Shown here: piece by piece, positions 15,478-18,072 of the stretch
How positions within the stretch are numbered: position 1 is the stretch's first letter
Layout of the letters: the number at the start of each line of letters is the position of its first letter
Virus record (IMG/VR): IMGVR_UViG_3300023173_000089
Location: 1 to 27,299 of that record
Reading direction: 5' to 3' (one strand)
Source: a virus
Lineage: Duplodnaviria > Caudoviricetes
Length of the DNA stretch: 27,299 nucleotides
Position numbers and translations under genes: made by a program
Notes under the pieces: model-generated
What the model was told of the DNA's origin: nothing
Seen by the model: the letters and a program-made list of their open reading frames with translations, nothing else
Database searches by the model: none

Positions 15478-16335
15478 ATGAGCGATCCGCTATCACACTT
15501 TTACAGAAACAAAGAAATCTTTGTAAAACTGCCCAGTAAAGGGCATTGGTACAAACAAAAACCCAATTTGACCGACGATTTTGAAATTGGAATATATCCA
15601 ATGAGTGTAAAAGACGAAGTTTTATTTAAAATTCCTGACACATTATATAACGGAGATGCAATTTTTGAAGTTATAAAAAGTATTGCTCCAGACATTATCG
15701 ACCCATATGAAATTTGTCTAGTAGACGTTGATGTACTGTTAATTGCTAGTCGAATTAATCAAAATGATGGAGAAATGAACGTAATTGCCGGATGTCCGCA
15801 CTGCAAAAAGACAAACGAATATGGTGTTGATTTAGAAAGTATACTATCACAAGTAAAGCATATACCAACACAACCAGTAGAGTTAGAATTACAAAACGGA
15901 TTACGTATTACATTTAAACCAAACACACTTGCTAGTGTTAATGCTAGTCATATTATGAATACAGAAAGTGTAAGAATTGCAGCGCAAATTACAGATGATA
16001 CAGATCCTGCATATGCAAAAGAATTATTCAGATCTAGTTTAGAAAAAACAACAGGAGCAACTATTGTTGTACTAGCAGATGCAATCGAAAATATCACCAC
16101 GCCTGACGGTACAGTAGTTGATAACATGGAAAGCATAACAAATTGGCTTTCAAATACAGATTCAGCAACAATAGAAATTATAAAGAAACACAGTTCTGTT
16201 CTTAACAATGCAGGAATGCAAAAAGAATTTACATTTGTATGCAGTAACGAAGACTGCGGAGAATCGTTCGAAGCACCTTTGGAATATAACCCAGCTTTTT
16301 TTTTCACCAGCAACTTAGACAAGCACGAGACATAA
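15478..16335 (+). CDS. Baseplate hub assembly / tail assembly chaperone, T4 gp26-like
   Basis: VKLPSKG, IYPMSVKDE, DVDVLLIASRI, CPHC and C-terminal CSNEDC...NPAFFF match the pattern of gp26-like proteins. Confidence 0.75.
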   Translation: MSDPLSHFYRNKEIFVKLPSKGHWYKQKPNLTDDFEIGIYPMSVKDEVLFKIPDTLYNGDAIFEVIKSIAPDIIDPYEICLVDVDVLLIASRINQNDGEMNVIAGCPHCKKTNEYGVDLESILSQVKHIPTQPVELELQNGLRITFKPNTLASVNASHIMNTESVRIAAQITDDTDPAYAKELFRSSLEKTTGATIVVLADAIENITTPDGTVVDNMESITNWLSNTDSATIEIIKKHSSVLNNAGMQKEFTFVCSNEDCGESFEAPLEYNPAFFFTSNLDKHET

Positions 16336-16544
16336 AAACTGTAATCAATACAGTTAAAGATAATGCTAAAAAATTTAGAAAAACAATTTTTGATTTAGTG
16401 CTTTATAGTGAAGGTAATTTTACAATGAATGATGTTTGGGGAATGCCTATGTATTATTTCAATGAAATTGTTGAAGCAATGTCATCTAAAGCAGAAAGAC
16501 AAAAGCAAGCATTATCTAAAAAGTCTAATACTCAAACATTTTAA
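16296..16544 (+). CDS. -1 frameshift extension of the gp26-like gene (predicted fusion 15478-16544, 355 aa)
   Basis: T9 run at 16296-16304. The -1 frame opens after TAA 16287-16289 and reads HQQLRQARDIKTVINTVKDNAKKFRKTIFDLVLYSEGNFTMNDVWGMPMYYFNEIVEAMSSKAERQKQALSKKSNTQTF* to TAA 16542-16544. No early start codon or RBS. Confidence 0.75.
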   Translation, partial: FFFHQQLRQARDIKTVINTVKDNAKKFRKTIFDLVLYSEGNFTMNDVWGMPMYYFNEIVEAMSSKAERQKQALSKKSNTQTF

Positions 16545-16629
16545 TTCGAAGAGCTAAAGCTCATCGTCAAACTCATTTGCATTCGTTTGAACTTTCTTCT
16601 TCTTATGATTTAGTTATTACCTTGGATTC

Positions 16630-16918
16630 AGTCGCACTTAGCCTTGTTACGGCTAAGCACAAAAAAATAACCAGAGCATTACCCCGGAAACAGACGCACC
16701 GTTATAGCGAAACCTTTTCAGGCAGAGGCGGTTGTGCGGTACCCCTTTACACGCTGCTTTCAACGCAAGCTACTAAGTTGCAATAACGGCTACTAACTTA
16801 GCATTACTCCCAGGTTACAATGGCGCAGTAGAGCCTGGTCTTTTGGTTTGTGTCCCCCAGCAAGTTCTGTTGGCAAGTACAGAGTACTGCCTCCTCAATG
16901 CTTTTAACAGAGGGGGTA
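16630..16918 (-). ncRNA. Putative large structured ncRNA of unrecognised family
   Basis: Lies in a 376-nt gap between convergent genes; ~48% GC over 16621-16920 (hand count). At least eight stems, a GAAA tetraloop and a loop-distal pseudoknot; G-U pairs work only on the minus strand. Confidence 0.65.
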
Positions 16919-16920
16919 TG

Positions 16921-17340
16921 TTATTTTTTAAGAGATTCAGTAAGAGCCTTAGATCCGCCTACACGGACATTTATTATGCCATTATAATATTCGTCAGTAA
17001 GTAATACTTCTCTGTCGAATTGTTCTTTAGCCTCGAGGTACGATAGTTGTCCTCTAGTTGTACAAAAATATAAAATTTCTCTTGTAAAGTTTTCTGTGCC
17101 TAATTTGTCAACATCTGCTTGCAAATTATCTGAAGATCCCCAATAGTCTCTCCAGTCACTTTCTACAAGTGTTCTACGTTTTCTTTTTTTGCCTTTTAGT
17201 GGTGGCCTAGTTTTTTTAAACTGTGATAGTTTTTTGCCTATATACTTTTTGCCATTAGTCAGATTTGTAATGAGGTATACAAAGCCGATAAATTCTTGTG
17301 GTATTTCCTCTACGGGTTTACCTTGGTATGTCCATTGCAT
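16921..17340 (-). CDS. Small GIY-YIG family nuclease (139 aa)
   Basis: GFVYLITN...KKYIGKK, YWGSS, FTREIL, LEAKEQ and YYNG motifs, plus a basic insert KKTRPPLKGKKRKRR. Confidence 0.85.
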   Translation of the reverse strand: MQWTYQGKPVEEIPQEFIGFVYLITNLTNGKKYIGKKLSQFKKTRPPLKGKKRKRRTLVESDWRDYWGSSDNLQADVDKLGTENFTREILYFCTTRGQLSYLEAKEQFDREVLLTDEYYNGIINVRVGGSKALTESLKK

Positions 17341-17370: not shown

Positions 17371-18072
17371 CTACTGATTATGGTATTGTTTTTTCAAAAT
17401 TTCAAAAGTCTGTTTCCAACCGTTGTCAATTTGGTGATATACATCACTGCGTTTTGCAATATCCCAATCGTTACCGCCCGGAAAACATTTGTCGCCAAAA
17501 AATACTACGTTGCCTTTAATGTGATTTAATGCTTGGCCTTTGTTGTGTCCTGCTTTAAAAATGTCTATACTAGTTTCGCCTGCTACTAGTGCCTCTGCTT
17601 CATTGCCAAAAAGTTTGTTAAATTCTTCTGATACAGTATTACGAGCCTTGTGTTCTTTTTCCCATTGTACATATCTTTGTCGTTGTTCAAAATTTGCATT
17701 TCTGCCACATATACTAAAATTTGCTGTGCCTGTACGTTGTTCTATATGATTGCCTGTTTTTTCTGGATAGTCTATTTTACTTAAAGCGTCCTCTAAGAAA
17801 TAGTATTGTTCTGATGTAAGTTGCCAATTATTACGTTCGTATTCTTCTGTGCCTTTATATACATGATTGCCGCTACAGTGAAAAACTAAGTCAAAACTAT
17901 TTGTTAACTTTTCACCAATTTGTTCAATTGTTTTTGGTCTATCTGATCCTGTACAAATGTAACATACATTATTACGAAGAAAATCATACATAAATTCTTC
18001 AAATACAGGATCAATAGTTTCTCGGGCATTAGTTAGTGTGCCATCTACATCAAAAACAAAACTAGTCATCAT
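17371..18072 (-). CDS. HAD-superfamily (IIB) eukaryote-type phosphomannomutase-like protein
   Basis: FDVDGTLT, TGSD, IEQRTGTANFSICGRNA, TSIDIF...K and FFGDKCFPGGND match PMM/Sec53-type motifs. Confidence 0.88.
   Translation of the reverse strand: MMTSFVFDVDGTLTNARETIDPVFEEFMYDFLRNNVCYICTGSDRPKTIEQIGEKLTNSFDLVFHCSGNHVYKGTEEYERNNWQLTSEQYYFLEDALSKIDYPEKTGNHIEQRTGTANFSICGRNANFEQRQRYVQWEKEHKARNTVSEEFNKLFGNEAEALVAGETSIDIFKAGHNKGQALNHIKGNVVFFGDKCFPGGNDWDIAKRSDVYHQIDNGWKQTFEILKKQYHNQ

What the first reader, a model, noticed from the sequence alone, without database searches (positions are those of the whole stretch)
16630..16918. Large, pseudoknotted non-coding RNA candidate between convergent genes
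Seen: a 376-nt gap (16545-16920) in an otherwise tightly packed window, at ~48% GC while other intergenic gaps are very AT-rich. It lies between two stop codons, so it cannot be a promoter region or 5' leader of either neighbour. Hand folding of the minus strand gives several elements. A 5' domain pairs CCCCC-UCUGUU with AACAGA..GGGGG and encloses the hairpin GGCAGUAC-UCU-GUACUUGCC. A long enclosing helix pairs GACCAG..CAUUGU..CCUGGGAG with UUUCCGGG-GUAAUG..CUGGUU. Inside it, a 9-bp stem (16803-16795 with 16779-16771) has a loop GCCGUUAUUGC (16790-16780) complementary at 10/11 positions to GCUAUAACGGU (16708-16698), i.e. a pseudoknot. The core also holds GCGUUG-AAAG-CAGCGU, AGGGGU/GCCUCU and GCCU-GAAA-AGGU. 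A U-tract and a 10-bp hairpin (16660-16634) follow. Many pairs are G-U and would be A-C mismatches on the plus strand. Inference: a functional RNA that I cannot assign to tRNA, tmRNA, RNase P or group I/II intron. It could be an RNP scaffold, a ribozyme or a replication primer.
Basis: partly seen in the sequence, partly recalled or inferred. Interest (0 to 1): 0.85.

Follow-up and report, generated by a model that had tools for sequence, protein, structure and literature searches.

The report
Knotted phage RNA copied by satellites
The gene-free gap in this uncultured giant-phage relative holds a conserved, doubly knotted RNA fold followed by a repeat-and-hairpin DNA tail; the same module sits in small integrated elements of freshwater bacteria, and it likely serves to start DNA copying, which no experiment has yet shown.

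Summary
Real. The minus-strand gap after the GIY-YIG gene holds a structured RNA of about 255 nt (16916-16662) plus a DNA-like tail. In 31 relatives, 27 of 67 pairs change on both sides. Its long enclosing helix fails (about 50% paired), and I found a second loop-loop pairing. The window has no Rfam hit, but a model of its core finds the same core just 3' of Rfam's orphan Polynucleobacter-1 motif, which is thus one 5' module of a longer RNA. New here: full copies lie in 9-14 kb tRNA-integrated islands of Polynucleobacter-type bacteria. These carry an integrase, a small recombinase, a clamp-loader ATPase and a phage late-type promoter, but no recognisable Rep and no GIY-YIG. Two direct repeats flanking the last hairpin change together. 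Best reading (0.5): a ColE1/T4-like RNA-primed replication origin that satellites copy. Function is untested; skew was uninformative; homology in cultured phages is by eye only. The scan reported this RNA family before on another genome (e1-5684341).

The parts
17377..17405 (-). Sigma-70-type promoter-like site in front of the GIY-YIG gene; likely source of the transcript that runs into the RNA
   Evidence: 10 of 12 consensus match (13 such sites in the region against 9.2 by chance, so weak alone). 9 of the 12 distinct family-A relatives printed have a near-consensus promoter at the same place.
16921..17340 (-). 139-aa SegE-type GIY-YIG gene; usual upstream neighbour, not an obligatory partner
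   Evidence: PF19835 E 3e-37, phrog_447. Adjacent in 72 of 91 family-A entries; the other 19 lack upstream sequence. Absent from PA5oct, GAP32 and the islands.
16854..16916 (-). 5' domain: P1 CCCCC/GGGGG, P2 AGCA/UGCU and a variable inner hairpin; takes the place of the Polynucleobacter-1 module
   Evidence: helices 1-2; no RF01718 match
16810..16838 (-). P4 hairpin CCAGG/CCUGG with inner stem UAC/GUA
   Evidence: 100% paired; 3 of 5 and 2 of 5 pairs change on both sides
16767..16809 (-). P5 stem whose loop (16789-16784) forms pseudoknot 1
   Evidence: basal 3-bp helix found by mutual information
16698..16704 (-). 3' strand of pseudoknot 1
   Evidence: 3 of 6 pairs two-sided; own-partner Watson-Crick run 6.5 against 3.7 for cross-partners in 45 distinct sequences
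16731..16766 (-).
   Evidence: The 2 variable pairs both change on both sides, 100% paired; the other 2 pairs are invariant and inferred
16706..16755 (-). Three-way junction P7 (AGCG/CGCU), P8 (AGGGG/CCUCU), P9 (GCCU/AGGU); the most conserved core
16661..16687 (-). P10 hairpin holding repeat copy 1 (GGUAAU), then a U-tract; terminator-like and the likely RNA 3' end
   Evidence: terminator scan; per-sequence folds; RNA contigs of runs X3 and X17 stop at 16662 (weak hint, other runs read through)
16634..16660 (.). P11 10-bp inverted repeat between the two direct repeats
   Evidence: 100% paired in 31 sequences
16616..16637 (.). Direct repeat copy 2 (22 nt, 77% identical to copy 1 at 16678-16699, spacing 62)
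   Evidence: concerted change in relatives
16545..16615 (.). AT-rich tail with short mini-hairpins
   Evidence: 2 in the window; at least one in 97% of 70 tails against 17% of coding controls

Best explanation
It is a conserved, doubly pseudoknotted RNA with a downstream repeat-hairpin-AT-rich tract that together likely form an RNA-primed replication origin of Rak2/PA5oct-like phages, and small integrated islands that carry a full copy are likely satellites using it to be replicated by the helper phage. SHOWN: the fold, its strand, one copy in each of two large partial genomes, the concerted direct repeats, the mini-hairpin tail, and the presence in att-bounded islands with a late-type promoter. 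INFERRED: host RNA polymerase transcribes GIY-YIG plus the RNA early; the RNA folds, stays hybridised to its template near the U-tract as an R-loop, and its 3' end (direct or trimmed by RNase H) primes leading-strand synthesis while the displaced strand's hairpins load helicase-primase. SPECULATIVE: repeat copy 1 in the RNA pairs with the template strand of copy 2, which would explain why both copies must change together; a lineage-specific binding protein would explain it equally well.
For: Covariation: 27 of 67 pairs; 31 of 37 on a 49-sequence alignment that was fitted to the model. Anatomy matches the T4 origin scheme of promoter, R-loop and AT-rich unwinding element (PMC3016281, passages) and ColE1's initiator-free primer RNA (PMC5043065, passages). 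Tail features. Direct repeats of 7 nt or more in 163 of 191 elements against 37% of shuffles; position-anchored copies identical in 66 of 78 island loci over 9 variants and 88 of 125 phage or island elements against 8% expected. One hit each in G001 and G003. The core is in 16 of 19 bacterial loci found by an RF01718-derived pattern. Five mapped islands are bounded by 34-46 bp tRNA-derived repeats 8.9-13.8 kb apart and encode integrase, XerC/D-like recombinase and clamp-loader ATPase, with no Rep, primase or helicase family among the ORFs scanned. TAAATA precedes 14 of 14 and 61 of 63 island RNAs and is enriched before phage genes. The syntenic slot lies beside gp46/47 and a Holliday-junction resolvase; RNase HI is next to it in phage Phosso and a superfamily-2 helicase-like gene fills it in Vibrio phage 2.275.O.
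Against: No direct evidence of priming or of an R-loop. Fourfold-site skew follows the coding strand in five genomes and marks no origin. The RNA strand is not G-rich (65 G, 59 C). T4 origins need no specific fold, so this much tertiary structure is unexplained. Two conserved island ORFs are unassigned and could be a Rep. Island-specific pattern: 0 hits in viral contigs and no circular contig among 80 metagenome loci. PA5oct and GAP32 gaps score only E 0.21 and 1.7, among noise; family B, the commonest type, is not found by the core model. The test that copy 1 sits in a loop held for family A (0.66 unpaired against 0.27 for flanks) but not for the others (0.48 against 0.45). The Vibrio helicase could not be shown to bind origins.
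Confidence: 0.5

Rival explanations
1. A trans-acting RNA or RNP scaffold that binds a phage or host protein; islands carry it as a decoy or helper switched on by the phage late sigma factor.
For: Compact tertiary fold with two pseudoknots and swappable 5' modules; island copies sit behind a late-type promoter.
Against: It does not explain the conserved repeat-hairpin-AT tail beyond the likely 3' end. In run X1 the contig over the element has depth 5.7 like its neighbours while head genes are far deeper (contig depths cannot properly rank genes). It is not among the four abundant PA5oct ncRNAs (PMC7318152 Table 1).
Confidence: 0.18
2. A cis-acting DNA-processing site other than an origin: a packaging or concatemer-resolution signal, or an R-loop that loads the sliding clamp for late transcription.
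For: Satellites also need packaging signals; islands encode a clamp-loader ATPase; resolvase and gp46/47 genes flank the slot.
Against: PA5oct has 39-kb terminal repeats and its syntenic gap lies near 76 kb, away from the ends. No terminase is adjacent and no packaged island form was found.
Confidence: 0.17
3. A 3' regulatory element or self-processing ribozyme that sets the end or stability of the gp55-gp47-gp46-GIY-YIG message.
For: It ends an operon with a terminator-like hairpin.
Against: The same core occurs as a stand-alone unit with its own promoter in islands; no Rfam ribozyme or riboswitch match; no joints in RNA contigs over the element.
Confidence: 0.07
4. The RNA is a partner or guide of the GIY-YIG nuclease, or the two move as one cassette.
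For: GIY-YIG ends less than 400 nt upstream in 64 of 77 viral loci and within about 10 nt in family A.
Against: The RNA occurs without the nuclease in all 80 island-type loci; close nuclease homologues occur without the RNA in Melnitz and several other loci. A nuclease aimed at satellite origins, like ICP1 Odn (PMC8263062, passages), is only an analogy.
Confidence: 0.06

Closest known systems
Polynucleobacter-1 RNA motif (Rfam RF01718; Weinberg et al. 2010, PMC2864571)
   Same: Same family context: the window's core model hits directly 3' of loci picked by an RF01718-derived pattern, up to 65 bits, and weakly just 3' of a confirmed Rfam hit (L013). Same repeat-hairpin-repeat end and same GIY-YIG neighbour in phages.
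   Different: The Rfam model covers only a 141-nt 5' module that the window lacks. The paper's table lists it as a possible cis-regulator of unknown function in 16 sequences. The core, pseudoknots, tail, phage slot and island setting are not in the passages I saw.
ColE1 RNA II primer (PMC5043065)
   Same: Predicted to work alike: a long folded transcript ending at an origin, with no initiator protein in the small replicon.
   Different: No sequence or structural homology was tested or seen, no antisense RNA I was identified, and R-loop formation is untested.
T4 R-loop origins oriF/oriG/oriE (PMC3016281)
   Same: Promoter upstream, AT-rich tract downstream, direct repeats, T4-like phage background.
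   Different: T4 origins share no sequence motifs and need no conserved fold; here the fold is strongly conserved.
Phage satellites such as PLE (PMC8263062)
   Same: Small tRNA-integrated islands with integrase and a phage-type promoter.
   Different: PLE has its own RepA and iterons; these islands show no recognisable Rep and carry the phage's RNA module. Induction and packaging are not shown.
Large ornate RNAs GOLLD, ROOL, OLE
   Same: Multi-helix, pseudoknotted, mobile-element associated (search listing only).
   Different: No Rfam match; much shorter.

Membership tests
Polynucleobacter-1 (RF01718) | Scores above the Rfam gathering threshold | tested here: not met
   No match up to E 5 in the window; relatives L013, L060, L260, L317 score 59-86 bits
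Polynucleobacter-1 (RF01718) | Shares the sequence downstream of the motif (my extension, not part of the Rfam definition) | tested here: met
   Model R1 hits 43 of 87 loci picked by an RF01718-derived pattern, 31 of them at E below 1e-7
tRNA / tmRNA | tRNA-like domain, tag frame | tested here: not met
   ARAGORN 0 genes; Rfam none
RNase P, group I/II introns, known ribozymes and riboswitches | Covariance-model match; splicing joint for introns | tested here: not met
   RNA contigs colinear across the element
ColE1-type primer RNA origin | Promoter upstream and a folded transcript reaching the origin | tested here: inconclusive
   Promoter-like site and fold present; no origin mapped
ColE1-type primer RNA origin | Persistent RNA-DNA hybrid, RNase H trimming, RNA-DNA junction | not testable with these tools
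   Needs experiments
ColE1-type primer RNA origin | Antisense RNA I copy control | not tested
   Only unstranded contigs were available
T4-type R-loop origin | Promoter plus AT-rich downstream unwinding element | tested here: met
   Tail 35% GC against 49% in the RNA; promoter. A loose criterion.
T4-type R-loop origin | Supports autonomous replication on infection | not testable with these tools
   Skew uninformative
Phage satellite (island copies) | Small att-bounded element with integrase and no full virion gene set | tested here: met
Phage satellite (island copies) | Helper-induced excision, replication and packaging | tested here: inconclusive
   Late-type box present; no viral or circular form found

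The most novel reading that the evidence does not exclude
An abundant clade of giant phages starts replication with a tertiary-folded primer RNA that docks its repeat onto the downstream DNA repeat. A previously undescribed family of Rep-less satellites in Polynucleobacter-type bacteria pirates these phages by carrying a copy of that RNA origin behind the phage's late promoter, driving an arms race in the repeat sequence.
Probability: 0.3. Interest if true: 0.92.

Novelty: new variant of a known kind. Interest (0 to 1): 0.76.

Why it matters
How Rak2/PA5oct-like jumbo phages start DNA replication was not stated in the passages I read, and Polynucleobacter-1 is listed without a function. If the reading holds, it gives the origin of a very common aquatic phage group, a second natural class of structured primer RNA beside ColE1's, and a new mode of satellite parasitism. 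The compact, covariation-defined 255-nt version in this window is a practical target for probing and structure work, and the island copies lie in cultured Polynucleobacter strains.

Tried and rejected
Rfam and ARAGORN on the window: nothing real. blastn of the gap against phage records: no match. Permuted tmRNA, suggested from memory by the Melnitz hit: no tRNA-like domain, and Melnitz has no such element after its GIY-YIG gene. Energy-minimum register of P8: rejected. Whole-genome and fourfold-site skew in PA5oct, GAP32 and G001-G003: follows coding strand. Core models on cultured phages: not significant; one GAP32 hit elsewhere at E 0.012 was not followed up. PA5oct supplement gave no expression values for the gap. 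Vibrio helicase-like gene: no named relative. ESM Atlas on two island ORFs: unnamed clusters only. Island forms in viral contigs or as circles: none. Lack of contig cover over gp26 in X3, X4 and X17 is not counted as evidence. The DUF6641/satellite paper search returned nothing relevant. Six motif terms were not found in six supplementary files of Fremin 2023, but three files were not searched, so the RNA may be among its candidates.

Full report
Setting. The window is a fragment of an uncultured T4-like phage whose capsid protein is 70% identical to that of PA5oct and 67% to GAP32, the Rak2-like jumbo group. On the minus strand the late sigma factor, gp47, gp46, a HAD hydrolase and a 139-aa SegE-type GIY-YIG gene run into the gap; the baseplate-hub genes meet it from the other side.

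Observation. The gap, its GC contrast and most local helices are as described. One-sequence folding energy is not significant, so the case rests on homologues. Of 80 viral loci with the closest GIY-YIG relatives, 71 carry a non-coding element right after the stop, in four sequence types (A 14, B 36, C 3, D 18); 7 end too soon to class and 2 have another context. A pattern scan gave 98 loci, 82 of them true family-A members. From 59 distinct sequences I kept 31 at under 95% identity, 65-95% identical to the window.

Structure. On that alignment a revised structure has 93.7% of cells paired and 27 of 67 pairs changing on both sides, against 86.5% and 15.4 in shuffles and at most 7 pairs when partners are slid. 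Related sequences can beat shuffles without structure, and the structure was derived from these sequences. The independent checks are the top mutual-information pairs and distant relatives. A second loop-loop pairing covaries at both variable positions. The long enclosing helix is about half paired and is replaced by two local hairpins, although the window's own minimum-energy fold does form it. G-U cells outnumber A-C cells 188 to 37, fixing the minus strand.

Expression. Twenty RNA runs hold part or all of the stretch, most from one salt-marsh campaign; eight runs were laid. Run X1 covers all 30 bins of the region, with one contig spanning GIY-YIG, the element and the next gene at a depth like its neighbours. 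Contigs of X3 and X17 stop at 16662 in the U-tract, while X4 reaches 16622 and X14 16587. These are unstranded contigs, so this is a weak hint of a 3' end at the terminator-like hairpin, not proof of a discrete RNA.

Relation to known RNAs. The window has no Rfam hit. Family-C relatives match Polynucleobacter-1, and a model of the window's core hits 43 of 87 loci picked by a pattern from that motif, directly downstream of it. Intermediate phages join a family-D 5' end to a family-A core. A broader model finds families C and D but not B. Polynucleobacter-1 is therefore one 5' module of a longer RNA, and the window carries another. PA5oct, GAP32 and Phosso have a 0.8-1.5 kb gap at the syntenic place, with a promoter-like site and by-eye similarity; PA5oct and GAP32 lack the GIY-YIG gene. 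Model scores there are not significant, so that homology is unproven.

The tail. Past the U-tract come a 10-bp inverted repeat, a second copy of a direct repeat, and an AT-rich tract with mini-hairpins. The two copies change together: 66 of 78 identical over 9 variants in island loci, and 88 of 125 against 8% expected across families B-D and islands, where 29 misses came from my anchor picking the wrong site.

Islands. Sixteen of 19 bacterial loci found with the Polynucleobacter-1 pattern carry the core; one is cut by a junction and two look like chance matches. Five mapped examples are 8.9-13.8 kb elements bounded by tRNA-derived repeats. They hold a large integrase, a small XerC/D-like recombinase, DUF6641, a clamp-loader-like ATPase and two unassigned conserved ORFs. 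No Rep, primase or helicase family was found among the ORFs scanned, which were most but not all island ORFs; the ATPase has only weak hits to helicase loaders. In 80 of 119 metagenome loci examined the same gene set recurs and GIY-YIG never does. TAAATA precedes 14 of 14 and 61 of 63 island RNAs and is enriched before phage genes, for example 39 against 2 of 212 in G001. That it is the late promoter is inferred from its resemblance to the T4 late box, which I recall. No packaged or circular form was found.

Mechanism. A small integrated element that copies a phage's non-coding module and puts it under the phage's late promoter most simply needs it in cis. Promoter, folded RNA, U-tract, repeats and AT-rich hairpin tail fit an RNA-primed origin as in T4 and ColE1. 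I recall that a ColE1 RNA II loop pairs with a downstream template stretch; no call showed this. Such pairing would explain the concerted repeats, but the loop test was positive only in family A. Skew gives no support. I put the origin reading at 0.5.

Literature seen. PMC2864571: main-text passages and supplement passages; no descriptive text for the motif was found in the held files. PMC7318152: passages and two parts of one supplement. PMC11242549, PMC6102473, PMC3016281, PMC5043065, PMC8263062: passages. PMC10690425: listing and a partial supplement search. PMC9004378: listing only. Searches showed no paper describing the full RNA or the islands; the library lacks most subscription journals.

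Earlier scan notes. Finding e1-5684341 reached the same family and primer reading on another genome; I saw it, after noting that hypothesis. It is not independent support. Its few lines do not mention the islands or the concerted repeats, and a word search for them found nothing.

Verdict. A real structured RNA, a new variant of an orphan motif family, probably part of a replication origin shared by giant phages and putative satellites. Interest 0.76.

Noticed in passing
L466:2080-12972, L468:5440-14439, L469:7226-18220, L470:8385 into L471, L472:3735-17567: Undescribed family of 9-14 kb tRNA-Phe/Lys-integrated islands in Polynucleobacter-type genomes with integrase, small recombinase, DUF6641, clamp-loader ATPase and short genes resembling jumbo-phage genes; one strain has two copies.
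   Followed up: partly
window 16296-16304 and 16356-16544: Run of nine T near the end of the gp26-like gene, followed by a short unstarted gp51-like frame; fits the frameshift reported in e1-5401355.
   Followed up: no
L007, L010, L080 and other family-B loci, after the GIY-YIG stop: The commonest element type has a different core that the models do not detect, but keeps the repeat-hairpin-repeat end; two of its helices look mutually exclusive by eye.
   Followed up: partly
Upstream of the GIY-YIG start in family B and D loci: TAAGTA a few bases before the ATG, suggesting leaderless transcripts from a late-type promoter, whereas family A mostly uses a sigma-70-type promoter.
   Followed up: partly
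L182:6999-8699 (Vibrio phage 2.275.O): A rare superfamily-2 helicase-like gene (phrog_2467) occupies the slot where relatives have the non-coding element.
   Followed up: partly
L180:8100-8517 (PA5oct gp339, gp338): Two tiny annotated ORFs lie inside the long syntenic gap behind a perfect sigma-70 promoter and may be mis-called parts of the RNA.
   Followed up: no
L203:18982-19139 (GAP32): Second weak core-model hit (E 0.012) away from the syntenic gap.
   Followed up: no
L003, L008, L011, L018, L023, L024, L029 and others: Many viral contigs end within a few hundred bases of the GIY-YIG stop, inside the element; possibly assembly breaks at sequence shared between populations.
   Followed up: no
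L335 / G008: A metagenome-assembled genome labelled as a Bordetella species carries a typical Polynucleobacter-type island; the label may be wrong.
   Followed up: no
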